Origin: Candidatus Spongiihabitans sp.
GTDB lineage: Bacteria > Pseudomonadota > Gammaproteobacteria > Arenicellales > Poriferihabitantaceae
Direction of reading: 5' to 3'
NCBI GenBank assembly: GCA_965237725.1
Contig: OZ250151.1
Coordinates: 2,755,086 to 2,819,085, forward strand
Length of the DNA stretch: 64,000 nucleotides
Below, in pieces: positions 35,328 to 49,547 of this stretch. The first letter of the stretch is position 1. Each line of letters begins with the position of its first letter. The notes below the pieces were generated by a model. It was given only the letters and a program-made list of their open reading frames with translations, was not told where the DNA came from and did no database searches. The position numbers were made by a program, and so were the translations under genes.

Positions 35328-36272
35328 TCAAGGCTTAACACCATACACCGTTTCGTTAACAATGGGGTCACCAATCACCCCAGGTTGCTTTTCATAGACC
35401 ATGACGCACATCAGGCGCTTTTTGTTGCCCTGGACTTGGGTTACCCGATGAGCAGAATGACAACCGCGAAAAATTACAAGTGCACCTTCCTGGCGCTGAT
35501 AGGATTTCACTCTCGATCGATCACCGAGTAACATGGTTCGAAGCTCGTCAATATTCGGATTATCGTCCGACCGAATATTTGGCACAATCTCAAAATCCCC
35601 ACCCAGTTCCGGCGCCTGTAACATCAATGTCATGGTAAAGGCATTACCTGAATCAAAATGCCAGGCCGACTGATCGCCATCGCCATAACAAATTACATTG
35701 ACCGGCTGATATGGATCATCGCTGGGATATAGTTTTTCCGAGTCGGTAATATCTGTAACAAACTGCTGAAAATATGGATTGAAGTAAAGCGCCTTTAGGT
35801 CTGAATCATTGGGTAAGATGTGGGCGCCAATCATTTTATATTGACCTTCCGCCATGATATTTTTGGGGTGATCATCGGGCAGATCTGGGGTCTTGTCGCG
35901 GTGCAGATAGACATTGCGCATGGAATGAGCCGGGTTGGCCTGATCCTGCAATGCTAAAACCATTTCTATTTCCGACAGTCGACTGGAATCAACCAGGAAA
36001 TTCGGCAGTATGTAAACTTGTTCGCTATTGAGACTGGCCACAGCAGAATCTACAAGGCTGTGATAATCCTCTGAATCCTGCCGATCAATGGGGTAGTGGG
36101 CAAGATTCACAATCTGATCAAGGGTTTGAGAATTGCTGGCTTTGATTGAAGTGGTCATCGATTCTTGCATACCCGGATTTGATTCTGCATGTTTTTGTGA
36201 AACAGGACTGCTATGGTTTTTGACATAATTTCTGAATAATTGTAATAGCAAATCTAGTCTGTAGTATCTCAA
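35328..36272 (-). CDS. Fe(II)/2OG-dependent oxygenase
   Basis: 314-aa track ORF with a TTG start. ATG 36170 (MQESM) is an alternative start. HxD occurs in AWHFDSG and the distal His in GCHSAHRV. Confidence 0.6.
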   Translation of the reverse strand: MRYYRLDLLLQLFRNYVKNHSSPVSQKHAESNPGMQESMTTSIKASNSQTLDQIVNLAHYPIDRQDSEDYHSLVDSAVASLNSEQVYILPNFLVDSSRLSEIEMVLALQDQANPAHSMRNVYLHRDKTPDLPDDHPKNIMAEGQYKMIGAHILPNDSDLKALYFNPYFQQFVTDITDSEKLYPSDDPYQPVNVICYGDGDQSAWHFDSGNAFTMTLMLQAPELGGDFEIVPNIRSDDNPNIDELRTMLLGDRSRVKSYQRQEGALVIFRGCHSAHRVTQVQGNKKRLMCVMVYEKQPGVIGDPIVNETVYGVKP

Positions 36273-36324
36273 GTAGCGCTAGTGTTTGCTTGCGATTTTC
36301 CGCAGACTACAAAGTATCAGAAAG

Positions 36325-36753
36325 CTAATTGTACAATTGCAGTTGTTCTTTGATGGCATCAGGCCATGGCAACGGACTTCGTTTTTGTAGGTCATACAAA
36401 ACGCCGACTACAGTCCCCTGTGCCTTGCATTGATTATTAAGGAAAACACCATTTTCGAGGGTGACCGAACTTGTTCCTATTTTATTTACCCTGGCGCCGA
36501 TATCTAACTCTTGGCGATACGAAAGTTCGCCAATGAAATCTATTTCAAGGTGCACAATTGCGATCGAACTAGTTAAAGGATTAATTTCGATCCCTAAAGA
36601 TGTCAGGAATTCCATTCTGGCGCTCTCGAAATACCCGCAAATGGCGGTATGATTGCAATGCCCCAGAATATCGAGATCAGAAAATCGGACTTTGTCTTTA
36701 ATCCAAAACTTATAGTGTGATCGCTGACGTTGCGTTTCTAGATTTTCGTTCAA
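36325..36753 (-). CDS. Hotdog-fold acyl-CoA/acyl-ACP thioesterase (4HBT/YbgC-like)
   Basis: 142 aa with VRFSDLDILGHCNHTAICGYFESARMEFL. Confidence 0.7.
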   Translation of the reverse strand: MNENLETQRQRSHYKFWIKDKVRFSDLDILGHCNHTAICGYFESARMEFLTSLGIEINPLTSSIAIVHLEIDFIGELSYRQELDIGARVNKIGTSSVTLENGVFLNNQCKAQGTVVGVLYDLQKRSPLPWPDAIKEQLQLYN

Positions 36754-36804
36754 GTATCTATTTGAAAATTATTATTTGAGGATATAATAGTGAATTCTCT
36801 TTGG

Positions 36805-37197
36805 CTAGTAAATCTTCAAGCAAATCGAAGGCCCAGCTGTCAATTGAACATTGGTTTGATTGTTAATAATAACAAAGCTTACTTTGACAGTTCCGTTTGG
36901 CATCATTTGATCTACCGTTAATGTTAAGCCCACAGTGTCGCCAACATAAATCGCAGCCTTGAAGTCTATATTTAAATTCAATATGACGTTACCTTGACCG
37001 AGCAACTCGGTAATCGCAGCAGAAATAAAACTTACTGTTGTCATTTCGTGGGCAATACGTTTTTTGAATACCGTTTTGGAAGCAAACTCATCATCGAAAT
37101 GAATTAGATTTCGATCACCGCTAATTTCTCCAAAGTCTTCAATCAAAGACGAGGCAATCGTTTTTTCTTGTCTAACACTATCTCCAACATTGACCAT
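36805..37197 (-). CDS. MaoC-like (R)-specific dehydratase/hydratase hotdog protein
   Basis: 130 aa with FGEISGDRNLIHFDDEFASKTVFKKRIAHEM. Confidence 0.75.
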   Translation of the reverse strand: MVNVGDSVRQEKTIASSLIEDFGEISGDRNLIHFDDEFASKTVFKKRIAHEMTTVSFISAAITELLGQGNVILNLNIDFKAAIYVGDTVGLTLTVDQMMPNGTVKVSFVIINNQTNVQLTAGPSICLKIY

Positions 37198-37420: not shown

Positions 37421-38929
37421 ATGCAAAACATTCTCGATTTGCTGAACATCACTGTTAAACAATTCCCAGATAAAACAGCCATTATCTGTGAGGGCGAGAA
37501 TGTGTCATTTCGAACGTTGGGTGAGTTAGTTGAAAACGTTGCGCAACAAATACGAGAACATTGGAAAATTTGTGCAGGTGACAAGATTGCGATTTTGTTA
37601 CCAAATTGTGCAGAATTCATATTTGTATATCTTGGGATTATTCGGACTGGGGCAATTGCATTGCCCATTAATATTCGTTTAAAACCCCAGGAAATCGCAT
37701 TTATACTGGAAGATGCGAATGTAACAGCGTTAGTCGCACACCATAAGACATGGGAAACGGTCCAACAGGTTATGGCAAATTTTCCGGAATTGCGTCAGAT
37801 CATGTCAGTTGGTTTTGAGAGTGAGCTTACAACTTCTATCAAAAAGTTTTTGACTGGATGTGAATCTAAGCGCAAGATGCCTGAACTGGGACCAGCAGAT
37901 GTTGCCGCAATTATTTACACTTCGGGAACAACCGGGTTGCCCAAAGGTGCAATGATCATGCATAAAAATATTATTTTCAATGCGCGTTGCACAATCGAAG
38001 GATTTGACTTCGAGCACGAAGATCGACATTTAATAACGGTTCCACTTTTCCATGTGACCGGCTTAAATACAATTTTGATAACGTCGCTTATGCTGGGAAG
38101 TACAGTAATCGTTTCAGATAAGACGGCGCCTCGAGATGTTATGACGCTGATAGATCAACACCATGTGACCACCTATTTTGGTGTGCCGACCACCTACGTA
38201 TTGTTAATTGATTTGGGGAATATTATATCTGCGGATTTATCTAGCGTACGAATTTTTGTATATTCCGGGGCGCCTATGCCGCCAGATACAATTTTAAAAT
38301 TGGATAGCCTTTTTCCCCATATCGATTTAGTCAATTTATATGGCTTGACAGAAACCACGTCGGTAACAACAGTTTTGCCTGCGGCAGAAGCATCTGGTAG
38401 AGGGGCGTCAGTAGGAAGACCAGTGCCCAATATTCAGTTAAAAATTATTGACTCAGGGGGAATGGAGTTACCAAAGGGTGAGATTGGTGAGTTGTGCGTA
38501 AAAGGCGATAGCGTGTTTAAGGGTTATTATGGTAACCCGGGTGCCACAGAAGCTGCGATTATAAACGGTTGGTTTAGGACAGGTGATAACGCCATTATCA
38601 ACGAAGAGGGTTATATTTTTCTGAAAAGTCGCAAAAATGAGTTGATTATTGTGGGGGGTGAAAATGTTTATCCAATTGAAGTTGAAAATGTGATTTGTTC
38701 GCTTTCGGAGGTTCTCGAGTCAGCTGTTATTGGCTTAGACCATCCTGTGATGGGCCAGACTGTAAAAGCTGTTGTTGTGCTTGAAAGGAATGCACAACTA
38801 AGTGAAGATGAAATAAAATTACATTGTTCACAGAGGTTAGCGTCTTATAAGGCTCCCCAGGCGATTGAATTCAGAGAACATTTGCCACGTAACCCCTCCG
38901 GCAAAGTAGTGAAACGGTTTTTGAGTTGA
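37421..38929 (+). CDS. AMP-dependent acyl ligase (acyl-CoA or acyl-ACP forming)
   Basis: 502 aa with YTSGTTGLPKGA, YGLTETT and GWFRTGDNA. Its stop lies 7 nt from the convergent hydroxylase gene's stop. Confidence 0.8.
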   Translation: MQNILDLLNITVKQFPDKTAIICEGENVSFRTLGELVENVAQQIREHWKICAGDKIAILLPNCAEFIFVYLGIIRTGAIALPINIRLKPQEIAFILEDANVTALVAHHKTWETVQQVMANFPELRQIMSVGFESELTTSIKKFLTGCESKRKMPELGPADVAAIIYTSGTTGLPKGAMIMHKNIIFNARCTIEGFDFEHEDRHLITVPLFHVTGLNTILITSLMLGSTVIVSDKTAPRDVMTLIDQHHVTTYFGVPTTYVLLIDLGNIISADLSSVRIFVYSGAPMPPDTILKLDSLFPHIDLVNLYGLTETTSVTTVLPAAEASGRGASVGRPVPNIQLKIIDSGGMELPKGEIGELCVKGDSVFKGYYGNPGATEAAIINGWFRTGDNAIINEEGYIFLKSRKNELIIVGGENVYPIEVENVICSLSEVLESAVIGLDHPVMGQTVKAVVVLERNAQLSEDEIKLHCSQRLASYKAPQAIEFREHLPRNPSGKVVKRFLS

Positions 38930-38936
38930 TATTAAT

Positions 38937-39926
38937 TTAATGATCTAGAACGATGTCCGAATTTTTAGATTCTCGATGGTAATTTGCTATTTGAGCAATC
39001 TGGGGTAACGACTGATACGCATTGCGAAATTCTTCGAGAACAGCAATTTCCTGTTCTGAAAAACAGGGATGCCAGAAGTTCAGGAACAAAACAATTCTGA
39101 TTTCATCACTTTTGTTCCAAGCCTGGTGTCTGAACGAATCATCAAATGTTAGAAGCTTGCCTTCAACCAATGGTCGTTCGTCTTCACCTGCTTTAATACC
39201 GCATTTTCCAGGTACAACCAGGGGAAGAAGGGCGCGGATTGCTCCATTCATAGGGCCGTGATGAGGCGAAATGACAGAATGTGGATTCATAGCGGAAAAC
39301 ATGGTGAGCTCTTTTTCGAATCGTGGCAATGACTCAAGTATTCTGGTGGTTTCCGGGCAGAGCGCACAATTTTCTTCCCATTTTTCTCCAAAAAAATAAA
39401 ATAGAAATGTATTCCAACCCGGTACTAGCACTCCGTATTCGTTTCTATAGGTATTGAAAGATTGCTGCGGTTTATTTAATAAATTGAGTAGCTCTCCCTT
39501 TATTACCGGGAAAGCTTGTTCAAGTGGATTTGCCCATTCGAATTGCGCAGGGTCGTAGAACGTTTGGGCCGGTACTCCCGGAATATAAAACGCAGGACGT
39601 TGGAGCGGATGGGTATACTTTGAATTTATCTGGCTGACATTTCTGGAAAAAGTATCAAAAACTGAATCCACACCGAGAGCCTGTAATCCCGTTCTAATAG
39701 TTGGGAGTTGGTCCATATTTAAATAAATATCCCGAAGGCGTTTGGTATCAGTTAGTTTTATCTTGAGTCTGGAATTAGATTTTTCATCAGAAAGATCAGG
39801 TCGAGGAAATTTTAATCTAAGTTTGAATATTAAAACGCCAGCAAGTCCGATAATTTTGGTTCTCAGATAAAGCTGGTAAGGAAAAACCAGCGACGAATTT
39901 ATTATTCTTGAAAATAGCAGTCGCAT
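38937..39926 (-). CDS. Aspartyl/asparaginyl beta-hydroxylase family (LpxO/OlsC-like) oxygenase with an N-terminal membrane anchor
   Basis: 329 aa. Hydrophobic segment is IIGLAGVLIFKL. The C-terminal block is PGWNTFLFYFFGEKWEENCALCPETTRILESLP ... ISPHHGPMNGAIRALLPL ... TFDDSFRHQAWNKSDEIRIVLFLNFWHP. Confidence 0.7.
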   Translation of the reverse strand: MRLLFSRIINSSLVFPYQLYLRTKIIGLAGVLIFKLRLKFPRPDLSDEKSNSRLKIKLTDTKRLRDIYLNMDQLPTIRTGLQALGVDSVFDTFSRNVSQINSKYTHPLQRPAFYIPGVPAQTFYDPAQFEWANPLEQAFPVIKGELLNLLNKPQQSFNTYRNEYGVLVPGWNTFLFYFFGEKWEENCALCPETTRILESLPRFEKELTMFSAMNPHSVISPHHGPMNGAIRALLPLVVPGKCGIKAGEDERPLVEGKLLTFDDSFRHQAWNKSDEIRIVLFLNFWHPCFSEQEIAVLEEFRNAYQSLPQIAQIANYHRESKNSDIVLDH

Positions 39927-39958: not shown

Positions 39959-40705
39959 TTATCTAATTTTATGAACGATTGTACCGATTAACTTTCCAAG
40001 GTTTTCGGCGTGAGGGCGCTGTAACATCGAAAATGTATCGCCCGACACACCAAATTCATCAACTGAATTTTTGGTCAGGTTATGCCATCCTCTTAAAATT
40101 TGGTCACTACAGTTCTCTGATCGAATTAATATTATTTTTGAAAATATTGGCCCACTTGTGAATTTCAACCCAGCATTAATATACGAATGGGTAATTATTT
40201 TTAGTCGCTCCGCGATTTCCTCTGGAAGTAAGTTGAGTTGATGGACTGTTCGTTCTTTAACGGTATTGACCATTTTCTCCACTTCAAGCAAAATTTTTTC
40301 GTCCACTTGGTGATTACTGGAGTTTTGTGGATGGGCGATACTGTCTAGTAATATTAAACCGGCTACAGTGCCGCCTTCTTTTTCAATTTGCCTAGCAATT
40401 TCAAATGCAACCGTACCTCCGAAACAATGTCCCGCAATGTAGTAAGGGCCTTGTTCCTGCCTATCCGTTATTTCGGATACATAGGCGCAAGCGATTTCTT
40501 CGATGTTTTCATGGGGCGCTTGATCCACATATAGCCCTGTAGGTTCGAACGAGAAGAAATTAATTGGAGGAGATGTCGCCCGTGCGAGGCTTATAAGTGA
40601 CAACGGGGTGGTTCCTGCTGATGGGATCATGAATAAGCTAGGCCCTGACATATCTTTGGTTAGCTCACAAAGATACTGTTGATTATTTGATTGGCTCGGG
40701 GTCAA
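39959..40705 (-). CDS. Type II thioesterase (alpha/beta hydrolase)
   Basis: 248 aa with the nucleophile elbow GHCFGG. It starts 12 nt downstream of the PKS stop. Confidence 0.75.
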   Translation of the reverse strand: MTPSQSNNQQYLCELTKDMSGPSLFMIPSAGTTPLSLISLARATSPPINFFSFEPTGLYVDQAPHENIEEIACAYVSEITDRQEQGPYYIAGHCFGGTVAFEIARQIEKEGGTVAGLILLDSIAHPQNSSNHQVDEKILLEVEKMVNTVKERTVHQLNLLPEEIAERLKIITHSYINAGLKFTSGPIFSKIILIRSENCSDQILRGWHNLTKNSVDEFGVSGDTFSMLQRPHAENLGKLIGTIVHKIR

Positions 40706-40717
40706 TTTTTTGATTTG

Positions 40718-43700
40718 TTATATCGTAGTTGATTCCCGAATTTTTTGGGACATTTTGCAGACGCTGGGGAAATCAAATAATGCGGTCACAGGGAGATCAA
40801 TATTATATTTTTTGGTAACGGCAAACTGTGCCTGGATAGCAGTTATCGAATCTCCACCAAGATCAAAAAAGTCATCATCCGCACCAATTGGCGTAACACC
40901 CAGAACATTTTCCCATATTTGAGTCAAGTTTATTTCTTCGGGGTCAGTGGGTTCGCGGTAAGCTGTTTCGAGTTCAGGACGAGATCCCCGGCCAATATCC
41001 AACATGTCCATACGTTCGTGTGCCTGGTCGATTGGCAATCCGGTTGCAAGAACATAAGATGGCAGATGATTGCGCGAAACCAGGCTTCGAAACAGCGCCA
41101 TGCCATCTTTTAATGGCACGCCTTTTCCATATTTTTCATTAAACGCTTTGAATATTTCCTGCCACGAATCCGGATGCTTTTGTATTTTAAATACGTTTTT
41201 CCCAATATGTGCTGCCCGGGCTAAACGCTTGAATCCATCGATAGCGTTATCTATTGGAATAACCGTTGTAGGTGCCGGTTTTAGAACTCCAAATTCAATG
41301 TCCTGCACTAATTTGTTTAACATTCGTTGAACCGCTGGATCTCTATTCTTAACTAATTGCCCAAGATCAAATGCATGATATGTGAGGCATTTCTGGAATG
41401 GTAATAGGCCTAGTTCAGTGTTTGAATAAATATCGCGTTTACCAATCTCAAGAAAACGACCTTTGTATCGAAGCAATTCCAAACTCGCGGGTATAAATTC
41501 ACCAGCCAGCGAATTAAGAACAACATCAACTCCTTCATCATTGGTCCAGCTGCGAATATCGTCTACGAAATCAAGTGAGCGCGAATCCGAGACATGCTCA
41601 ATGCCTAGTTGTTTTAGATAATTGCGTTTTTCTTCGCTACCTGCTGTGGCGAAGATTTCAGCGCCAATATTTTTCGCATATTGAATTGCAGCGAGCCCCA
41701 CACCGCCAGATGCAGCATGGATTAATATTCTCTCACCTCTTTTTAACTTTGCCAATTCGTTGATTACATAATCTGCAGTAAGAAAAATTGTTGGCAACCC
41801 CGCGGCATCTTCAAATGGGATGTTAGATGGCATTGGCGAAACTAAATCAAAGCGAGTGGTGATTGACGTAGATATTGTATTATTTCCAATGGCAATAACA
41901 AAATCCCCAGGTGAAAGATCTGTGTTTCCAGGTCCTACGGCATTAACAATTCCAGCGCATTCTCCGCCAATGGATAATTGTTCCCCTTCCATTAGTGGGT
42001 ACTGCCCTAGTGCGCTGAGTAAATCGCGAAAATTCAATCCTGAGGCAATGACATCTATCTGTACTTCTCCCGTCTCCGGAGACTTAGGTTCAAAATTTTC
42101 TGGTCCTATTGAGTCAAGTTCGCCGGGTTCATATACTTTTAGAAATTGATTTCCGAGCAGGTTGGTTGCCGCTACATCAATATTGTCTTGATCACAATCT
42201 GACCGAACGATATCAGTCGCCTGAGCGCTGAGTAATAAGTATTCGTCGATTTCTACTAAAACTTTTCCTTTGTCATTGACAAATTTTATATCGTAGACAT
42301 CGAAATCTTTAGAGCGTCGGCGATTCCCATATACATAAAATTCTTTTCCAGGTGCATCGAAAATTCGCATCGATTTCATTGTGTATGGTAATACACCTTC
42401 GGTGAAAAATCGCCAGCAAGGCACATGTACGGCACGATCGATCAGCGCAGGATGAAACTCAAACTCATTCAGATCAGAAATATATTCATCTGCAAGAATT
42501 ATTTTCCCCCAAGTCTGGTCGCCATCCACGACAATTCCTTCAACACATTCCCAACGATTACCAAAACTAACCAAAGTACCATTTTTTTGCCAGACTGAAT
42601 CTTCGACTAGATTCATAGGCAACGGCGGTTTAAATTCTTTTGACTTGTCGCTAGTAGTCTTGACTGCCCCCGTGGAATTTACGATCCAGTAATCAGCTTG
42701 TAATACACGAGAGCGCACTTCGAAGTACTCGACGTTATTATCATTGAAAAACTTGATTTCTATTTCGGTTCCACAAGTGTCTATAAACAGCGGTCGCAAA
42801 AACCCAACATTACTCAATTCCACACCATAATTTTTTCCACGCAACTCGACGTAAGCCCCACGAACACATTCCAGGATGAATGTTCCAGGTAGTAAGGCGT
42901 GATTTTGGACCCGATGGTTTAGATACCAGCTATTGTCGTCTGCTACTATTCCTGTAAATATGGTTTGATCATTTGAATCTGTTTGGTATTTGCTGAGCAA
43001 TGGGTGATCAAATTCAACTATACCGTCTGAAAAATTTTCAATTTCATCTGTTCGATCAATCTCATTGCGATTCTTGTTCACGGCATTTACCGCCATGCCT
43101 AATTCCTCCAATGGACCAAATCCAATTGCACAACTAAGGCTGCGTCGATCGCGCGAACGTTTGTGTGAAAGTATGTCTAGAACATTATTTGAGGCACTAT
43201 ATGCACATTGGCCAACAGATGGTAGAACCGAGGCCTGTGAAGAAAAATTAACGAATATATCCAGATTATAATCTGCAAAAATTTTCTCAAGATTGAAGGC
43301 CGTATGTACTTTTGCACAAAGTTTCTGGTCGACGTTCTGTTGAGTATCCATATGTGCCAAGCTAATAATACTTTCTCCGGCACAATGAACAACCCCATTT
43401 ACTTTAGAAAAATAATTTTCGGCGATAACGATGGCGGACTTCAGGCTATCGATGTTTGTGACATCCGTGTGAACCACCAGCACCTCGGCTCCCATAGATT
43501 CTAGTGTGAGAATGGCTTTTAAAGCGAAACCAATTTTGTCACTCTCCTTAGCCCTCGAATTCCATTCATCCCGAGGAGGTGGTTGCCAACGGGAAGTTAA
43601 CACCAATCTGCAATTCGAAATAGAATATAATTCTTTTGAAATTTCCAGTCCCAAATAGCCAACGCCACCAGTAATTAAAACTGTGCCGCGGTGGCGAATT

Positions 43701-46700
43701 CTCGGCTCACTGATTGCGAATTCCTTTAGAGGATATATTTCTTCTACATATCGACCACCAGGTCTATGCAAAACAACGTTTTGGGCAGTTCGTGATTCGC
43801 ATTCAATAATTATCGATCCAACTAACCTATCAAAATCTTTTAGATCGGAAAACCCCGAAATTTCGATGCAACGAATGGTGGTTCCAGATAATTCATTGGG
43901 TATGTTCTTAACCGGACCCAGTAGCCCGCCTTTCTCCGCGTGCAGTGGGGTAGACTCCCCGGGCATCTGACGTAGTCCGTCTACAACAATTGATATATCA
44001 AAATCGTCACATATTTTGAGATCAAGCGCGGCTTTTATCAAAGAAATTATGCTGTGATACCCAAGGGTGTTTGCATTTTTAAATGCTTCAATAGAATTAT
44101 GCTCACCATCTGTCCCAGTAACTGACCATAAATGTAATACGCGTGGAGTAAGGTTATCTCTACCCGCTTTGAGTTTTAAAAGTACAGATTTCATGTCTTC
44201 CTTCGACGTTGGTCGGATGCGATATACATCAGCCTCGATTTCAGAAAACGCTTGACCTGGTATGAGTTCTACTACTCGGTTATTGTCAGCTTTTAATCTA
44301 TCGCAAATTTTCTGCCCCAGTCCAACTTCATCTCGGAAAACCAGCCAAGTCTGGCTTTCAATTCTAGATTCGCTGTTTTCGATTTCTTGTTTTCGCCAGC
44401 CGGTTTCATACAACTTGAGTTCCGTCCTGGATCTAGTTTTGGATTCTCCAGATTCCGCCCAATATTTTAAGCGTTCAAATGGATATCCCGGCAAGGTTAG
44501 TTTTTTGCAATTTGAATTAGAATAAAAATTGTCCAAATGTATATTCGCGCCGCTACACCAAAATTTTCCCAGAGCCGCTAGTGCGACGTTAGTGTTATTT
44601 TTTTGGGGTGTTGATTTTGTATCAAGAATGGAAGTAGTGGAAAGGTCTGAATCGTGTTGCTTAACCAGGTCGGATAATCCGGTGCCCGGACCAAGTTCTA
44701 AAAACAGTGATTCAAAATTATTTCGAACATAATCTATAGAATCTGAAAGTCTCACCGGGCGACGTATGTGCTCAGCCCAGTAATCGGCGTTTGTAGCCTG
44801 GTCGTCTGTTAGAGGTAAACCAGTGGTGTTTGAAATGATTGGAATCTCCGGCCGATTTAACTCCATACTATTTACAACGGAGCGAAAACCTGGAATTGCC
44901 GGTTCCATCATCCACGAATGAAAACCATGGGAAGTTTTTAGCTGATGGGTAATTACATTTTCTGAATTTAGTTTCTCGAGAAATTGAGCCATCTGTTCGG
45001 TAGACCCTGAAACTACACATGCATTTGGGCCATTTACAGCAGCGATTTCAACACCAAAATCAAGTTTGTTTAGCAATTCAGATTCAGATTGAAAAACAGC
45101 CGCCATTTTACCTGGATCACACTGTTGCATTAATTTTGCTCGGTTGGCGACCAACACAAGTGCATCATCCAAAGAAAAAACATTGGCGAGGCAAGCCGCC
45201 ACAATTTCTCCAATCGAATGCCCAATAATAGCGGTGGGCTCAATCCCCCAGGACATAAACAGTTTGGCCATGGCGTATTCCACAACAAACAATGCGGGTT
45301 GGGTGTTTGCGGTTTGTTGAAGTAACTCCGACTCAGGATTATTTGGTTGGGTTTGATCTATATGGATAAGAGTACGAATATCTAGACCCAAAAGCTTATG
45401 CAAATGTTCAGCACAATAATCAACTACATCTCTGTAGAATTTCTCGTGGGTATAAATATTTTGTCCCATCCCTAAAAACTGTGCACCTTGGCCTGGAAAC
45501 AAAAATATTGTAGCGCTTTTGTTTTGGTCGACGACACCGGAAAACAGTGGCATTTCATGGATCAGATCCAGTGGCTTGAAATCGTTCTGTCTGGTAATAA
45601 AGCAACAACGGTGTGCCATCTCGGTCCGCCCACACTGCAAGGTATGTGCAATATCAGATAGGCACTCATCCGGATTGACTTCTATATACCATGCTAAATC
45701 AGAAACCCTTCGATCCAGGGATGATGCGGTTGCAGCGGAAAATACAAGTAAATGGTCTTGGCGTGAAGAACCTGAAACTTGAGTTGCACTGAATTCTTGC
45801 AAGATCAAATGTGCATTTGAGCCGCCAAACCCAAAAGCAGAAACGGCGGCCCGCCGCGGGGTACTATTATTTGACCATTCGAGAGACTCAGTCGGAATAT
45901 AAAATGGGCTGGAATCAAGATCGATCAGGGGGTTTCGCCGTGAAAAGTTTGTAAGCGGGGGCAATCGACGTTTTTTAATTGCCAGGCAAGTTTTGATTAA
46001 ACTGACAACACCCGCAGCTGTGCGTAAGTGACCTACGTTGGATTTAACCGATCCAATGGCACAATAGCCCACTTTTTCGGTTTCGTTTCTATATACCTCA
46101 GTGATTGAAGCCACTTCAACTGGATCACCCAATCGGGTGGCGGTACCATGAGCCTCAAGATATTCAATTGATTCAGCATTGACGTTCGCATCATCGAGTG
46201 CGGCTCGAACGACGGCCTTTTGACCCGTTGTGCTCGGGGCGATAAAACTTTCTTTGTAAATGGGCGCACCGTCATTTAATGTTGCAGTACCTTTGATCGT
46301 TGCATAGATATTATTTCCATCCGCTATTGCATCTTCCAGAGGACGAAGTACAACCACGCCACCGCCACTTCCAAAGATTGTGCCGTCGGCATTAGAATCG
46401 AACGGACAAATCCTGCCAGATTCCGACAACATGCCATCAACGGTTGACATGTATCCAGCAATATGTGGAATTTCTACGCCAGCGCCGCCGGCCAGCGCCA
46501 AATTGCATTCTCTGCGTCTCAATGCTTGAGTTGCCATATGAACCGCAACCAGTGAAGTTGCGCAGGCTGCCATTACAGAAATACTTGGTCCATTGAGGTT
46601 TAACTTGTAAGAAACGCGGGTGGTAAAGTAATCAATTACATTGCCAAGTGCATCTGGCAGTATTTCACCGAGATTTTCAACCCTATATCCAATGCTATTA

Positions 46701-47155
46701 GAATTTCCTTGGGGGCTGTTCAGATTCTGTTTTTGATACCAACTTTCAACACCGCCATAAATCCCAGTGACGAACTTTTCTGTTCCCGGCACCACGGCGG
46801 CATTTTCTAATGCCTGCCATGCACATTCTAAAAATAACCGATGACCAGGATCTGTTCGTTCGGTTTCGTATGCCGCCATGTCAAAAAACGCCGAATCAAA
46901 TTCATCCACGTTATCCAGTAAAGGCTTGGTGCGAATGAAGTGTGGATCCGCGAGCTGCGAGCGGTCTATGCCCGCTATACGAAGCTCTTTCGCAGTTGGT
47001 CGTGATAAACAGTCTTTGCCGTTAATGATATTTTCCCAGAATTGCTCAAGGGAATTCGCCCCAGGCACTCTTAATGCCATACCAATTACGGCAATGGGTT
47101 CAGAGTCGAATTGGGACATCAGAATAGTTTTAGGTTGTTGTTCGGCAATACTCAC
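40718..47155 (-). CDS. Single-module type I polyketide synthase, domain order KS-AT-KR-DH-ER-ACP
   Basis: 2145 aa. Coordinates are minus-strand nt.
- KS aa 19-455 (nt 47101-45791): AACATS Cys198, EAHGTAT, KSNVGH.
- AT aa 550-845 (45508-44621): GHSIGE, SHGFHS (malonyl-type HAFH-like).
- KR aa 915-1345 (44413-43121): GTVLITGGVGYLGLE, FVNFSS ... AYSASN.
- DH aa 1380-1645 (43018-42221): DHPLL, LNHRVQNHALLPGT, FHPALIDRAVH.
- ER aa 1690-1995 (42088-41171): GLNFRDLL, LIHAASGGVGLAAIQ.
- ACP aa 2072-2140 (40942-40736): LGGDS, Ser2103. Confidence 0.9.
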   Translation of the reverse strand: MSIAEQQPKTILMSQFDSEPIAVIGMALRVPGANSLEQFWENIINGKDCLSRPTAKELRIAGIDRSQLADPHFIRTKPLLDNVDEFDSAFFDMAAYETERTDPGHRLFLECAWQALENAAVVPGTEKFVTGIYGGVESWYQKQNLNSPQGNSNSIGYRVENLGEILPDALGNVIDYFTTRVSYKLNLNGPSISVMAACATSLVAVHMATQALRRRECNLALAGGAGVEIPHIAGYMSTVDGMLSESGRICPFDSNADGTIFGSGGGVVVLRPLEDAIADGNNIYATIKGTATLNDGAPIYKESFIAPSTTGQKAVVRAALDDANVNAESIEYLEAHGTATRLGDPVEVASITEVYRNETEKVGYCAIGSVKSNVGHLRTAAGVVSLIKTCLAIKKRRLPPLTNFSRRNPLIDLDSSPFYIPTESLEWSNNSTPRRAAVSAFGFGGSNAHLILQEFSATQVSGSSRQDHLLVFSAATASSLDRRVSDLAWYIEVNPDECLSDIAHTLQCGRTEMAHRCCFITRQNDFKPLDLIHEMPLFSGVVDQNKSATIFLFPGQGAQFLGMGQNIYTHEKFYRDVVDYCAEHLHKLLGLDIRTLIHIDQTQPNNPESELLQQTANTQPALFVVEYAMAKLFMSWGIEPTAIIGHSIGEIVAACLANVFSLDDALVLVANRAKLMQQCDPGKMAAVFQSESELLNKLDFGVEIAAVNGPNACVVSGSTEQMAQFLEKLNSENVITHQLKTSHGFHSWMMEPAIPGFRSVVNSMELNRPEIPIISNTTGLPLTDDQATNADYWAEHIRRPVRLSDSIDYVRNNFESLFLELGPGTGLSDLVKQHDSDLSTTSILDTKSTPQKNNTNVALAALGKFWCSGANIHLDNFYSNSNCKKLTLPGYPFERLKYWAESGESKTRSRTELKLYETGWRKQEIENSESRIESQTWLVFRDEVGLGQKICDRLKADNNRVVELIPGQAFSEIEADVYRIRPTSKEDMKSVLLKLKAGRDNLTPRVLHLWSVTGTDGEHNSIEAFKNANTLGYHSIISLIKAALDLKICDDFDISIVVDGLRQMPGESTPLHAEKGGLLGPVKNIPNELSGTTIRCIEISGFSDLKDFDRLVGSIIIECESRTAQNVVLHRPGGRYVEEIYPLKEFAISEPRIRHRGTVLITGGVGYLGLEISKELYSISNCRLVLTSRWQPPPRDEWNSRAKESDKIGFALKAILTLESMGAEVLVVHTDVTNIDSLKSAIVIAENYFSKVNGVVHCAGESIISLAHMDTQQNVDQKLCAKVHTAFNLEKIFADYNLDIFVNFSSQASVLPSVGQCAYSASNNVLDILSHKRSRDRRSLSCAIGFGPLEELGMAVNAVNKNRNEIDRTDEIENFSDGIVEFDHPLLSKYQTDSNDQTIFTGIVADDNSWYLNHRVQNHALLPGTFILECVRGAYVELRGKNYGVELSNVGFLRPLFIDTCGTEIEIKFFNDNNVEYFEVRSRVLQADYWIVNSTGAVKTTSDKSKEFKPPLPMNLVEDSVWQKNGTLVSFGNRWECVEGIVVDGDQTWGKIILADEYISDLNEFEFHPALIDRAVHVPCWRFFTEGVLPYTMKSMRIFDAPGKEFYVYGNRRRSKDFDVYDIKFVNDKGKVLVEIDEYLLLSAQATDIVRSDCDQDNIDVAATNLLGNQFLKVYEPGELDSIGPENFEPKSPETGEVQIDVIASGLNFRDLLSALGQYPLMEGEQLSIGGECAGIVNAVGPGNTDLSPGDFVIAIGNNTISTSITTRFDLVSPMPSNIPFEDAAGLPTIFLTADYVINELAKLKRGERILIHAASGGVGLAAIQYAKNIGAEIFATAGSEEKRNYLKQLGIEHVSDSRSLDFVDDIRSWTNDEGVDVVLNSLAGEFIPASLELLRYKGRFLEIGKRDIYSNTELGLLPFQKCLTYHAFDLGQLVKNRDPAVQRMLNKLVQDIEFGVLKPAPTTVIPIDNAIDGFKRLARAAHIGKNVFKIQKHPDSWQEIFKAFNEKYGKGVPLKDGMALFRSLVSRNHLPSYVLATGLPIDQAHERMDMLDIGRGSRPELETAYREPTDPEEINLTQIWENVLGVTPIGADDDFFDLGGDSITAIQAQFAVTKKYNIDLPVTALFDFPSVCKMSQKIRESTTI

Positions 47156-47604: not shown

Positions 47605-48777
47605 TTGAAAATTGAAGGTGTCGACAACGATTTAGATCCAATTTCGTTATCCAAAATAGAGTTACGGTTAACTGAAATTTGTTGTGAAATTCTTCAGCTG
47701 GAGGCTATGGATGTTAATGACGACCTATTTGATCTCGGTTGTGATTCGGTAAAAGCGATGCAACTTTGCACAATACTTGAAATGGAATTTCAGTACGCTG
47801 GCCGGATAAGTTCGCTTCTGCAATTTTCGACCGTTCGGTTGCTTGCCAAAGAATGCCATACATCGAGTCCCCGTCAATCAACCAATAATTCCTGTACATT
47901 GGTTGATATCCAGGCGTCTGGCAAACTGCCTCCGATAATTGTTATGTATTCGGTAGGGGGTGAGGTTTACTATAGTTTGCCGCTGTTAAATTATCTTGGT
48001 CCTAACCAGCCGGCATATGGCCTTGAGCCGCCTTATGCTTTAGAGCCCCCAGGACCATTGATTGAGCAGATTTCAGGGTATGCAGATAAGTTATGTGAAC
48101 GGTTTCCCAATGGACCGTATTGTCTAATAGGTTATTCGTTTGGTGGCAATATCGCATACGAACTAGCTCAGGAACTTCACAACCGTGGTAAGAAAGTTGA
48201 TCTTGTGGCAATGCTTGATAGTCATGCAGTTGGACAGTCTCAATCTATTCTTGAACGCGCCAAATCGCTTTTGGGGTTTATCGTGAATTTTCCACGTTGG
48301 ATTTTACAAAACTTAGATCCTCGAGATATGCCAGAATTTATTGGTCGATTAAAAAGGAAATGTGCAGCTATCACTAACAGAATTTTAGTAAGTTTGGGTT
48401 ATGCTATTGAAACCTATACTTTCGAATGGGAGGATGTCCCAGAGATGGGAAAAATTTCAGACGATATGGCTACCCATTATTACCATATCCATCGAAGCGT
48501 TTATGAATTTTTTGGCACCCACCAGTCAAAGCCATATAATGGCGATGTCATGATTTTCCGTGCCAAGGTAAGACCCTTGTTCCACGGTTTTAGCAAACAC
48601 CTTGGTTGGAAACAACTTATAAAAGGCAAGCTTACTATCATAGATATCCCTGGAACCCATGGTCATTTGATACGCAAGCCTAATGTTGAAATTGTTGCCA
48701 ATCATCTTGGTGAGGTGCTTCAAAGGATTGAGGACCAATATAAGGCCCAACCAGATTATAGCGCGTCTTTGAATTAG
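47605..48777 (+). CDS. Stand-alone carrier protein fused to a thioesterase (ACP-TE didomain)
   Basis: 390 aa with a TTG start. The carrier motif is DLFDLGCDSVKAMQL (Ser48). The alpha/beta hydrolase part has GYSFGGNIAYE and GTHGHL. Confidence 0.8.
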   Translation: MKIEGVDNDLDPISLSKIELRLTEICCEILQLEAMDVNDDLFDLGCDSVKAMQLCTILEMEFQYAGRISSLLQFSTVRLLAKECHTSSPRQSTNNSCTLVDIQASGKLPPIIVMYSVGGEVYYSLPLLNYLGPNQPAYGLEPPYALEPPGPLIEQISGYADKLCERFPNGPYCLIGYSFGGNIAYELAQELHNRGKKVDLVAMLDSHAVGQSQSILERAKSLLGFIVNFPRWILQNLDPRDMPEFIGRLKRKCAAITNRILVSLGYAIETYTFEWEDVPEMGKISDDMATHYYHIHRSVYEFFGTHQSKPYNGDVMIFRAKVRPLFHGFSKHLGWKQLIKGKLTIIDIPGTHGHLIRKPNVEIVANHLGEVLQRIEDQYKAQPDYSASLN

Positions 48778-48797: not shown

Positions 48798-49547
48798 TTG
48801 TTGAAGCAGTGGCATGAATACAAAGCGCCAATTGCGTTATCCGGCGACCGTGTTGATATATGGTGTATTTGGTTTGAAGACGGTAGCGAATCGATTTTAG
48901 ACTATTTAGATATTCTTAGCAGTGAAGAACGAAAGCGTGCGAAACGGTTTCATCGAAAAGTAGATTTCCACAGATTTGTTGTGGCCAGATACGTTTTACG
49001 TACACTACTTGGTGGAATTGTGGGAGCCCAACCGTCGTCTCTGGAATTCAGCACAAATAAATATGGCAAACCAAAGTTGTTGCCCAAGCTGTCTCTTAAT
49101 CAAAATTCTGAATCGATAAATTTCAATCTATCCCATGCAGGTGAATATGGATTAGTTGCAATTTCAACTGCAAAAAAAATTGGTATCGATATTGAGCGAA
49201 TCAGAGAAATTGATAATATTGAAGAACTGGCAAAACGATCATTTTCCAATGATGAGTATTTGCAATTTATTACCCAGCCAGAGTTTGATCGGTTAAATAC
49301 ATTTTTTCGATGCTGGACCCGAAAAGAAGCATTCATAAAGGCTATCGGTAAAGGCCTAAACCAGCCTCTGGATTCTTTCTCGGTATCAAGTTCCCCAGAT
49401 CAAGAAGTTAAATTTTTATCACTGCCTCCAGGATATCAACTAAAAAATTGGGCTCTATACGATATTGGCATTAACCAACATTACCGTGCAGCTTTAGCGA
49501 TAGATCGAGCTATAACGACCGTAGCGTGCTGGCAGTGGCAACAATAA
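48798..49547 (+). CDS. Sfp-type 4'-phosphopantetheinyl transferase
   Basis: 249 aa with a TTG start. Motifs are FNLSHAGEYGLVAIS, IGIDIERI and WTRKEAFIKAIGKGL. Confidence 0.85.
   Translation: MLKQWHEYKAPIALSGDRVDIWCIWFEDGSESILDYLDILSSEERKRAKRFHRKVDFHRFVVARYVLRTLLGGIVGAQPSSLEFSTNKYGKPKLLPKLSLNQNSESINFNLSHAGEYGLVAISTAKKIGIDIERIREIDNIEELAKRSFSNDEYLQFITQPEFDRLNTFFRCWTRKEAFIKAIGKGLNQPLDSFSVSSSPDQEVKFLSLPPGYQLKNWALYDIGINQHYRAALAIDRAITTVACWQWQQ

What the first reader, a model, noticed from the sequence alone, without database searches (positions are those of the whole stretch)
40718..47155. Non-canonical reducing-loop order in the PKS: KS-AT-KR-DH-ER-ACP
Seen in the sequence:
- The KR Rossmann motif (GTVLITGGVGYLGLE, aa 1157-1171) and its catalytic region (FVNFSS ... 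AYSASN) lie directly after the post-AT linker.
- The DH motifs come only afterwards: DHPLL at aa 1383, LNHRVQNHALLPGT at about aa 1412, FHPALIDRAVH at about aa 1567.
- The MDR-type ER follows (LIHAASGGVGLAAIQ, about aa 1811), then the ACP (LGGDS, Ser2103).
- The DH HxxxGxxxxP motif has Asn in place of Gly (H-RVQ-N-HALL-P).

Established knowledge:
- Animal FAS and canonical modular or iterative type I PKSs are ordered DH-ER-KR, with the KR split around the ER.
- KR-before-DH is otherwise a PUFA-synthase (PfaA) trait.
- PfaA lacks a cis MDR ER and has tandem ACPs, which are absent here.

Inference: this is a distinct fusion lineage of fully reducing synthase, possibly iterative.
Basis: partly seen in the sequence, partly recalled or inferred. 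Interest (0 to 1): 0.6.

Follow-up and report, generated by a model that had tools for sequence, protein, structure and literature searches.

The report
TubD-type PKS with KR-DH-ER order
The gene encodes an intact polyketide synthase whose three reducing domains really do sit in an unusual order, but the same order occurs in the characterised tubulysin enzyme TubD, so this is an uncharacterised stand-alone member of a known but little-discussed enzyme lineage.

Summary
Pfam, PDB sequence matches and an AlphaFold2/Foldseek model all give KS-AT-[psiKR-KR]-DH-ER-ACP. The region after the post-AT linker (aa ~920-1348) is a complete, unsplit two-subdomain ketoreductase, not a hidden dehydratase.

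- **Lineage:** in KS, KR and DH trees, proteins with this order separate from canonical DH-psiKR-ER-KR synthases at 99-100% SH-aLRT. About 68 of 119 close database hits and about 40 of the 150 best 50%-identity representatives share the order.
- **Precedent:** the order is not new and is not otherwise confined to PfaA. TubD of the tubulysin pathway has the same Pfam order and aligns colinearly with this protein at 32% identity over its whole length. Papers also write ClbB and a dinoflagellate NRPS/PKS this way.
- **Asn for Gly:** this falls at a variable position of the DH motif. The catalytic residues are invariant.

The window protein belongs to a stand-alone ~2.1-kaa subclade. Its named genome matches were all MAGs. 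It usually lies beside a carrier-thioesterase protein and a type II thioesterase. A paralogous locus exists in the same genome, and 40 related genomes lack the gene. Whether it works iteratively is unresolved.

The parts
40718..47155 (-). Type I PKS gene, 2145 aa from the GTG at 47155 (probably 2133 aa from the ATG at 47119)
45944..47101 (-). KS domain (aa 19-404). Active-site Cys198 lies in AACATS; His in EAHGTAT and SNVGH
44567..45508 (-). AT domain (aa 550-863). Motifs GHSIGE and SHGFHS; the family consensus is HAFH, so malonyl-type by inference
44459..44494 (-). Post-AT linker motif LPGYPFERLKYW (aa 888-899)
43823..44308 (-). KR structural subdomain (psiKR, PF21394, aa 950-1111), contiguous with the catalytic KR
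43112..43687 (-). KR catalytic subdomain (aa 1157-1348). K1282 and S1306 are invariant; Y1319 and N1323 are conserved in 50 of 51 sequences
42233..43006 (-). DH double-hotdog (aa 1384-1641). H1414 and D1573 are invariant; N1418 sits at the variable Gly position
41186..42073 (-). MDR-type ER (aa 1695-1990). GGVG at 1817-1820. The model superposes on CurK ER with TM 0.89, rmsd 2.4 A, 41% identity
40748..40927 (-). ACP (aa 2077-2136), Ser2103
39959..40705 (-). Type II-like thioesterase directly downstream. Homologues flank 8 of the 10 related PKS loci compared
47605..48777 (+). Carrier-thioesterase (T-TE) protein, divergent from the PKS. A T-TE or C-A-T-TE lies next to 8 of the 10 related loci compared
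48798..49547 (+). Sfp/HetI-type phosphopantetheinyl transferase
37421..38929 (+). FadD-like acyl-CoA/AMP ligase (PRK06187, 472 bits against a cut-off of 476); putative starter activation
38937..39926 (-). OlsC/LpxO-like acyl 2-hydroxylase (Asp_Arg_Hydrox family)
35328..37197 (-). Three small tailoring genes: a 2OG oxygenase (HalD-like by Pfam, but with a WHFD HxD triad), a YbgC-like hotdog thioesterase, and a MaoC/HadB-like dehydratase

Best explanation
The gene encodes an intact, single-module, fully reducing type I PKS of the TubD type.

**Architecture (shown).** After the post-AT linker comes an unsplit ketoreductase, with the structural and catalytic subdomains contiguous. A PKS-type double-hotdog DH follows, then an MDR ER, then one ACP. 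In the canonical mFAS/PKS layout the DH comes first and the ER is inserted between the two KR halves. Chemically the order of reactions is unchanged.

**Reaction cycle (inferred from intact motifs).**
- The KS (Cys198) condenses a malonyl unit, selected by the AT, with a starter.
- The KR (K1282/S1306/Y1319/N1323) reduces the keto group.
- The DH (H1414/D1573) dehydrates.
- The ER saturates the double bond.
- The chain stays on Ser2103 throughout.

**Lineage (shown).** The protein belongs to a lineage distinct from canonical synthases in its KS, KR and DH. That lineage includes TubD and many NRPS-fused, cMT-bearing and TE-fused variants.

**Origin of the ER (inferred from tree discordance).** The ER was added to a KS-AT-KR-DH scaffold. 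A small sister group carries a differently related ER in front of the KR.

**Pathway (inferred from context).** The starter is supplied in trans, by the FadD-like ligase and/or the carrier of the divergent T-TE protein. The product is released by the T-TE or the downstream TE. It is then oxidised by the OlsC/LpxO-like and 2OG hydroxylases, giving a hydroxylated lipid-like acid. The number of extension rounds is not determined.
For: **Domain order**
- Pfam gives the order with coordinates.
- PDB sequence matches: KR region to MlnE and A-KR, DH to CurF, CurK and PksJ.
- AF2 model with mean pLDDT 87.3. The only low-confidence internal stretches are the KR-DH and DH-ER linkers.
- Foldseek: the full KR superposes on 6ulw and 5d2e, the ER on CurK and JamJ, and the DH-ER part on the MAS-like modifying region.

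**Catalytic residues:** invariant or nearly invariant in a 51-sequence family alignment.

**TubD:** same Pfam order, identified by name, 32% identity over 2201 colinear columns.

**Breadth of the family**
- 68 of 119 non-self hits have the same order by domain mapping.
- About 40 of the 150 top 50%-identity representatives give one colinear match over KR-DH-ER.

**Trees**
- Canonical rows fall on one side of a 99-100% SH-aLRT branch for KS, KR and DH.
- 68 of 69 KR-DH-ER-type ERs fall in one 95% set, nested among canonical cis-AT ERs.
- The ERs of the ER-KR-DH type fall in another 98% set.

**Context**
- Window neighbours are TE, T-TE, PPTase, FadD-like ligase and hydroxylases.
- The same PKS / TE / T-TE trio occurs at the paralogous locus and in five MAG loci from other phyla.
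- C-A-T-TE replaces T-TE in two further loci.
Against: - No biochemical data exist for any stand-alone member.
- The trees use a quick search with SH-aLRT support only. They were built on sequences picked by similarity to the query and are unrooted, so the direction of ER gain or loss is inference.
- FAS, PfaA, PKSE and trans-AT reference domains were not in the trees.
- The inter-domain arrangement in the model is unreliable (pTM 0.51).
- The KR lacks the LDD motif that many family members carry, so its stereochemistry is unclear.
- The role of a carrier-TE protein without C or A domains is unexplained.
- The ligase, hydroxylases and PKS have not been shown to be co-regulated.
Confidence: 0.8

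Rival explanations
1. The stand-alone enzyme works iteratively, like a type I fatty-acid synthase. It builds a medium- or long-chain saturated acyl chain from an acyl-CoA or acetyl starter. The TE then releases the chain, or in relatives a C-A-T-TE module passes it to an amino acid to give an N-acyl amino acid. Hydroxylation follows.
For: - The protein is a single module with no loading module, no docking sequences and no other PKS module in the 64-kb window.
- The tailoring genes are lipid-oriented: an OlsC/LpxO-like 2-hydroxylase, a FadD-like ligase, and hotdog and MaoC proteins.
- Relatives pair with a terminal C-A-T-TE module, which fits lipo-amino-acid logic.
- Two self-contained paralogous loci lie in one genome.
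Against: - The only characterised colinear relative found, TubD, performs one extension within an assembly line (my own knowledge of the tubulysin pathway; homology shown).
- Many lineage members are fused to NRPS modules.
- Nothing in the sequence reports chain-length control.
Confidence: 0.35
2. This is a wholly new fusion lineage with no characterised member. Its only precedent for KR-before-DH is the PUFA synthase PfaA.
For: - The order differs from canonical synthases.
- In a genome-contig scan limited to two subclade peptide motifs, the full-length KR-to-DH matches all came from MAGs.
- The exact string KS-AT-KR-DH-ER-ACP occurs in no searchable paper.
Against: - TubD has the same order and full-length colinear homology.
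- ClbB and a dinoflagellate NRPS/PKS are described with this order.
- The PfaA model matches only KS and AT, far below its cut-off.
- The KR and DH resemble modular-PKS domains.
Confidence: 0.05
3. The order is canonical and the domains were mis-called. A DH-like fold would lie after the AT, and the region called DH would be something else.
For: None found.
Against: - aa 950-1111 match PF21394, the KR structural subdomain.
- aa 922-1346 align end to end with solved KRs and superpose on them in the model.
- aa 1384-1641 match PKS_DH_N and PS-DH and the CurF, CurK and PksJ DH structures.
- The same probes recover DH-psiKR-ER-KR in canonical hits.
Confidence: 0.01

Closest known systems
TubD, the tubulysin PKS/NRPS of Archangium (Angiococcus) disciforme, CAF05649.1 / UniRef100_Q5ZPA8
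   Same: - The Pfam order is identical: KS 11-388, AT 537-832, psiKR 965-1113, KR 1155-1366, DH 1391-1660, ER 1697-1988, ACP 2090-2153.
- It shares 32% identity over 2201 colinear columns covering the whole window protein.
- It gives a single colinear HMMER match over KR-DH-ER.
   Different: - TubD continues into a heterocyclisation C-A-oxidase-T NRPS module (3515 aa).
- It works inside a multi-protein assembly line.
- The window protein ends just after its ACP, stands alone, and is partnered with a T-TE, a TE and lipid-type tailoring genes.
ClbB PKS module of the colibactin pathway
   Same: It is written KS-AT-KR-DH-ER-T and performs one malonyl extension with beta-carbon processing (PMC5490422). 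NRPS-PKS hybrids of similar size with this order (P0076, P0077, P0254) lie in the same ER subclade or give colinear matches.
   Different: - It is fused behind a C-A-T NRPS module.
- Its sequence-level order was not verified here because the gene was deliberately not fetched.
- P0077 is not in a clb-like neighbourhood.
Dinoflagellate hybrid NRPS/PKS, A-PP-KS-KR-DH-ER-PP-TE (Gambierdiscus, Karenia, Ostreopsis)
   Same: The KR-DH-ER order appears in a table that otherwise writes the canonical split form as KR[ER]KR, so the table reflects sequence order (PMC7159223).
   Different: It is eukaryotic, fused to A-PP and TE, and its AT is not always called. Homology to the window protein was not tested.
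Canonical fully reducing modules and mFAS (MAS-like PKS 5bp4, CurK, JamJ, human FAS)
   Same: The four folds and catalytic motifs are the same. The ER model superposes on CurK ER with TM 0.89 and 41% identity, and the DH-ER part aligns with the MAS-like modifying region.
   Different: The canonical order is DH-psiKR-ER-KR, with the ER inserted into the KR. Here the KR is unsplit and comes first. Canonical KS, KR and DH form the opposite side of 99-100% branches.
PfaA-type PUFA / secondary-lipid synthases and enediyne PKSE
   Same: The KR precedes the DH.
   Different: - Those enzymes place their ACP(s) between the AT and the KR and have no cis MDR ER.
- TIGR02813 scores 340 bits against a cut-off of 1010 and covers only KS and AT plus a 26-bit KR piece.
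- The protein has no C-terminal PPTase.

Membership tests
TubD-type fully reducing module (KS-AT-KR-DH-ER-ACP) | A contiguous structural plus catalytic KR directly after the post-AT linker | tested here: met
   PF21394 at 950-1111 plus KR at 1157-1348. Colinear with the MlnE and 6ulw KRs.
TubD-type fully reducing module (KS-AT-KR-DH-ER-ACP) | A PKS double-hotdog DH after the KR, an MDR ER after the DH, and a single ACP last | tested here: met
   DH 1384-1641, ER 1695-1990, ACP 2077-2136. The folds are confirmed.
TubD-type fully reducing module (KS-AT-KR-DH-ER-ACP) | Full-length colinear homology to TubD, and a position on the non-canonical side of the domain trees | tested here: met
   32% identity over 2201 columns. 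KS, KR and DH trees split canonical from non-canonical at 99-100%. TubD itself was not a row in the trees.
TubD-type fully reducing module (KS-AT-KR-DH-ER-ACP) | The KS is primed by an upstream NRPS carrier and performs one extension per chain | not testable with these tools
   The window has no NRPS module. A T-TE protein and a FadD-like ligase lie nearby. Relatives have C-A-T-TE neighbours.
Canonical mFAS-type reducing PKS | The DH directly follows the post-AT linker, and the ER is inserted between psiKR and KR | tested here: not met
   The same probes give DH-psiKR-ER-KR in canonical hits.
PfaA (omega-3 PUFA synthase subunit A, TIGR02813) | A score above the curated cut-off of 1010 bits, and tandem ACPs between AT and KR | tested here: not met
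   The score is 340 bits and only KS and AT are matched. Per-domain matches are 216, 97 and 26 bits. There is one PP-binding domain, at the C-terminus.
Enediyne PKSE | The order KS-AT-ACP-KR-DH-PPTase in one polypeptide | tested here: not met
   There is no internal ACP and no C-terminal PPTase domain, and an ER is present. The PPTase is a separate gene.

The most novel reading that the evidence does not exclude
The stand-alone ~2.1-kaa subclade, always partnered with a carrier-TE protein and a type II TE, is an iterative FAS-like 'secondary lipid' synthase of a kind not yet described. It has been spread by horizontal transfer among uncultured marine Gammaproteobacteria, Deltaproteobacteria, Planctomycetota/Phycisphaerales and Nitrospirales.

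Its lineage would record two independent recruitments of an ER onto a KS-AT-KR-DH scaffold, after the DH in one branch and before the KR in another. That implies a modifying-region architecture different from the mFAS/MAS paradigm. I know of no solved structure of this arrangement, and none appeared among the Foldseek PDB matches.
Probability: 0.3. Interest if true: 0.55.

Novelty: new member of a known kind. Interest (0 to 1): 0.35.

Why it matters
**Engineering.** Reductive-loop swapping is a central problem in PKS engineering, and it is complicated by the ER being inserted inside the KR. This lineage keeps the KR whole and carries DH and ER as appended cassettes. Natural variants lack the DH (KS-AT-KR-ER-ACP) or have the ER moved in front of the KR. 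Such a lineage offers ready-made evidence on which junctions tolerate change. It also predicts a modifying-region topology that I have not seen in any solved structure.

**Biology.** The stand-alone subclade with its T-TE and TE partners is an uncharacterised pathway. It probably makes an oxidised lipid-like acid, and it occurs in several uncultured marine phyla.

**Limit.** The domain order itself is not new, because TubD has it.

Tried and rejected
- **Literature strings.** 'KS-AT-KR-DH-ER-ACP' gave no papers. 'AT-KR-DH-ER' gave only the colibactin paper. 'KS-AT-KR-DH' gave four papers, none relevant beyond ClbB. 'TubD' plus 'tubulysin' gave only a review, because the primary tubulysin paper is not in the library.
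- **ClbB-specific model.** NCBIfam has none. P0076, P0077 and P0254 hit only generic PKS and NRPS models. The neighbourhood of P0077 is another PKS-NRPS line, not a clb-like island. The ClbB link therefore rests on literature only.
- **Scan of named genomes.** The first scan, with a 9-sequence alignment, failed for lack of a conserved 7-10-mer. The 4-sequence version worked but used only two subclade motifs. It returned six full KR-to-DH matches, all from MAGs, and about 70 ordinary actinobacterial KRs.
- **Cluster names.** Look-ups were uninformative for most members. TubD and one Candidatus Parabeggiatoa entry were the exceptions.
- **PfaA reference.** Neither the own genome nor the 14 control genomes holds a pfaA above cut-off, so PfaA domains could not be added to the trees.
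- **Earlier scan notes.** Searches by words and by sequence found nothing on this architecture.
- **HalD Pfam hit.** It suggested a halogenase, but the protein has an HxD triad (WHFD), so it is a hydroxylase-type enzyme.

Full report
**1. The observation**

The minus-strand ORF 40718-47155 is uninterrupted and encodes 2145 aa. Pfam places the domains as follows.

| Domain | Residues | E-value |
|---|---|---|
| KS | 19-404 | 8e-58 / 3e-35 |
| KS-AT linker families | 408-523 | |
| AT | 550-863 | 6e-51 |
| PF21394 (KR structural subdomain) | 950-1111 | 5e-12 |
| Catalytic KR | 1157-1348 | 2e-34 |
| PKS_DH_N + PS-DH | 1384-1483, 1530-1641 | 4e-12 / 2.5e-11 |
| ADH_N + ADH_zinc_N (ER) | 1695-1754, 1818-1988 | 2.5e-24 (zinc_N) |
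| PP-binding (ACP) | 2077-2136 | 5e-13 |

These E-values are far beyond chance. The order KS-AT-KR-DH-ER-ACP is therefore real.

The family alignment begins eight residues before the conserved IAxIGMA. This suggests the ATG at 47119 (M13) is the true start rather than the GTG at 47155.

**2. Is a DH hidden after the AT?**

No, on three lines of evidence.
- A phmmer search of aa 919-1653 against PDB sequences aligns aa ~922-1346 end to end with complete two-subdomain ketoreductases. These are MlnE KR 5d2e (E 2e-18) and the NRPS A-KR 6ulw. The later part of the query matches the CurF, CurK and PksJ dehydratases.
- An AlphaFold2 model of aa 900-2000 was built on a 51-sequence family alignment. 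It has mean pLDDT 87.3. Its only disordered internal stretches are aa 1348-1374 (KR-DH linker) and 1651-1664 (DH-ER linker).
- Foldseek superposes the first ~450 residues on 6ulw and 5d2e (rmsd 3.2-3.6 A). It superposes the ER on CurK, JamJ and CurF ERs (TM 0.88-0.89, rmsd 2.4-2.6 A, up to 41% identity). The DH-ER part aligns with the MAS-like modifying region 5bp4.

The KR is thus whole and unsplit, as in KR-only modules, and DH and ER are appended after it. Inter-domain packing in the model is not reliable (pTM 0.51).

**3. Catalytic integrity**

The 51-sequence alignment shows these residues as invariant or nearly so.
- **KR:** G1163, G1166 and G1169 of the nucleotide-binding site, plus K1282, S1306, Y1319 (50 of 51) and N1323 (50 of 51).
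- **DH:** H1414, H1568, P1569 and D1573.
- **ER:** GGVG at 1817-1820.
- **N1418:** It is a variable position, not a special feature.

The KS has Cys198 and both His motifs. The AT has GHSIGE and SHGFHS, where the family consensus is HAFH. The query and its closest relatives lack the LDD motif that many family members carry. All six domains look functional.

**4. How common is the order?**

A word-seeded search with aa 940-2000 returned 120 proteins. I mapped the query's seven domains onto them with phmmer.

| Order | Non-self hits |
|---|---|
| ...psiKR-KR-DH-ER-ACP (this order) | 68 |
| Canonical KS-AT-DH-psiKR-ER-KR (same probes) | about 45 |
| KS-AT-KR-ER-ACP (no DH) | 2 |
| KS-AT-ER-psiKR-KR-DH-ACP(-TE) (a third order) | 4 |

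- Pfam confirmed the third order for P0074, the DH-less form for P0030 and the query-like order for the paralogue P0032.
- An exhaustive HMMER scan of 1.84 billion 50%-identity representatives was also run. About 40 of the best 150 gave a single colinear match spanning KR-DH-ER.
- Variants include cMT insertions (for example a Symploca protein), C-terminal TE fusions and C-A-T-fused NRPS-PKS hybrids.

**5. A characterised member**

One representative, P0268, is named 'TubD protein [Archangium disciforme]' (CAF05649.1, UniRef100_Q5ZPA8).
- Pfam gives TubD as KS 11-388, AT 537-832, PF21394 965-1113, KR 1155-1366, DH 1391-1660, ER 1697-1988 and ACP 2090-2153. A condensation/heterocyclisation domain, an A domain and a nitroreductase-type oxidase follow.
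- BLASTP aligns the whole window protein with TubD colinearly, at 32% identity over 2201 columns.
- From my own knowledge of the tubulysin pathway, this module extends a valine-derived intermediate by one fully reduced C2 unit.

Two papers add further precedent.
- ClbB's PKS module is written KS-AT-KR-DH-ER-T (PMC5490422).
- A dinoflagellate transcriptome study lists A-PP-KS-KR-DH-ER-PP-TE for Gambierdiscus, Karenia and Ostreopsis. Its architecture table otherwise writes KR[ER]KR for canonical modules (PMC7159223).

The order is therefore documented, although I found no paper that discusses it as a class.

**6. A distinct lineage?**

I built quick maximum-likelihood trees from the domains of these hits.
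- All canonical rows fall on one side of a single branch, with SH-aLRT 100 for KS, 99 for KR and 99 for DH. The KR-DH-ER type and the ER-KR-DH type fall together on the other side.
- The ER tree differs. 68 of 69 KR-DH-ER-type ERs fall in one 95% set, which also holds two canonical rows and is nested among canonical cis-AT ERs.
- The four ER-KR-DH-type ERs sit in a different 98% set, with KS-ER-KR-type proteins.

The simplest reading is a shared KS-AT-psiKR-KR-DH scaffold that acquired ERs of different origin at different positions.

Caveats:
- The searches were quick and gave SH-aLRT support only.
- The trees are unrooted.
- The rows were chosen by similarity to the query.
- FAS, PfaA, PKSE and trans-AT references are absent.

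The query lies in a 34-38-row subclade (97-100%). Almost all its members are stand-alone ~2.1-kaa proteins.

**7. Not a PfaA**

TIGR02813 scores 340 bits against a cut-off of 1010. At the genome level it matches only KS (216 bits), AT (97 bits) and a 26-bit KR fragment. There is one ACP, at the C-terminus, and the ER is an MDR type.

**8. Context and likely function**

Genes around the PKS:
- a 248-aa thioesterase directly downstream
- an OlsC/LpxO-like acyl 2-hydroxylase
- a FadD-like ligase (PRK06187, 472 bits against a cut-off of 476)
- a MaoC/HadB-like dehydratase and a YbgC-like hotdog thioesterase
- a 2OG oxygenase with an HxD triad
- on the other side, a divergent carrier-thioesterase (T-TE) protein, a HetI-type PPTase and a GT2

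The same genome holds a paralogue, P0032 (35% identity over the KR-DH-ER region), about 990 kb away. It has the same arrangement of divergent T-TE, PKS and downstream TE. Its neighbours are a JmjC/cupin protein, a Rieske oxygenase, a PhyH dioxygenase and a B12-radical-SAM enzyme.

Among related loci:
- Five MAG loci again have a T-TE upstream and a TE homologue downstream. They come from a Deltaproteobacteria bacterium, a Planctomycetota bacterium, Proteobacteria bacterium TMED72 and two Phycisphaerales bacteria.
- Two other relatives have a C-A-T-TE NRPS module instead, one with MbtH and one with an extra TE and ACP.
- The Nitrospirales relative has only a cupin/JmjC neighbour.

None of 40 related genomes carries a colinear homologue. 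These comprise 24 from the same family and 16 from other families of the same order. The PKS block is also lower in GC than the first 28 kb of the window. Both points are consistent with an acquired accessory island.

I infer a small pathway with these steps:
1. A starter acid is activated by the ligase and/or held on the T-TE carrier.
2. The PKS extends it with full reduction.
3. A thioesterase releases it.
4. The product is hydroxylated.

Whether the PKS acts once, as TubD does, or iteratively cannot be decided from sequence. I put iteration at about 35%.

**9. Verdict**

The lineage is real and distinct. It is neither unprecedented nor PfaA-related, and it contains a characterised enzyme.
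- The window protein is a new, uncharacterised, stand-alone member of a known module type.
- Specialist interest is modest. It comes from the lineage-level picture (unsplit KR, cassette-like DH and ER, a third domain order) and from the conserved T-TE and TE partnership.

Noticed in passing
L093:8001-15311 (P0074); also P0072, P0075, P0080: A third reducing-loop order, KS-AT-ER-psiKR-KR-DH-ACP-TE, confirmed by Pfam. Its KS, KR and DH group with the KR-DH-ER lineage, but its ER belongs to a different ER clade. The gene follows an NRPS with a luciferase-like monooxygenase domain.
   Followed up: partly
P0030 (1905 aa) and P0063: Natural DH-less variants, KS-AT-psiKR-KR-ER-ACP, in which the ER follows the KR directly. 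This is an odd combination: an enoylreductase with no cis dehydratase.
   Followed up: partly
L011:1235-7663 (-) = G000:C1:1805234-1811662, with L011:434-1210, L011:7900-9174 and L010:13912-18437: A second, paralogous PKS locus in the same genome (35% identity over the KR-DH-ER region). It has the same T-TE / PKS / TE arrangement but different tailoring genes: JmjC/cupin, Rieske oxygenase, PhyH dioxygenase, a B12-binding radical SAM enzyme and an MDR dehydrogenase.
   Followed up: partly
window 47119 vs 47155: The PKS probably starts at the ATG at 47119 (MSQFDSEPIAVIGMA...), which matches the N-termini of family members, not at the GTG at 47155. Neither start has a clear Shine-Dalgarno sequence.
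   Followed up: partly
window 35328-36272 (-): This protein's best Pfam hit is 'Halogenase D', but it carries WHFD (an HxD facial triad). It is predicted to be a hydroxylase rather than a halogenase.
   Followed up: partly
P0049, P0052, P0058 (~3650-3666 aa): C-A-T-KS-AT-KR-DH-ER-ACP-TE hybrids whose precomputed Pfam list includes PF07238 (PilZ). This hints at a c-di-GMP-binding domain inside a megasynthase.
   Followed up: no
window ~28000-58700: The block holding the PKS locus has lower GC (0.38-0.47) than the first 28 kb (0.45-0.54). The PKS has no colinear homologue in 40 related genomes. Both suggest an acquired island.
   Followed up: partly
window 47605-48777 (+) and homologues in L013-L017: A carrier-thioesterase didomain protein without C or A domains is the most constant partner of the stand-alone PKS subclade. 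It lies upstream and co-directional with the PKS in five MAG loci. Its role, whether loading carrier, release or acyl transfer, is unexplained.
   Followed up: partly
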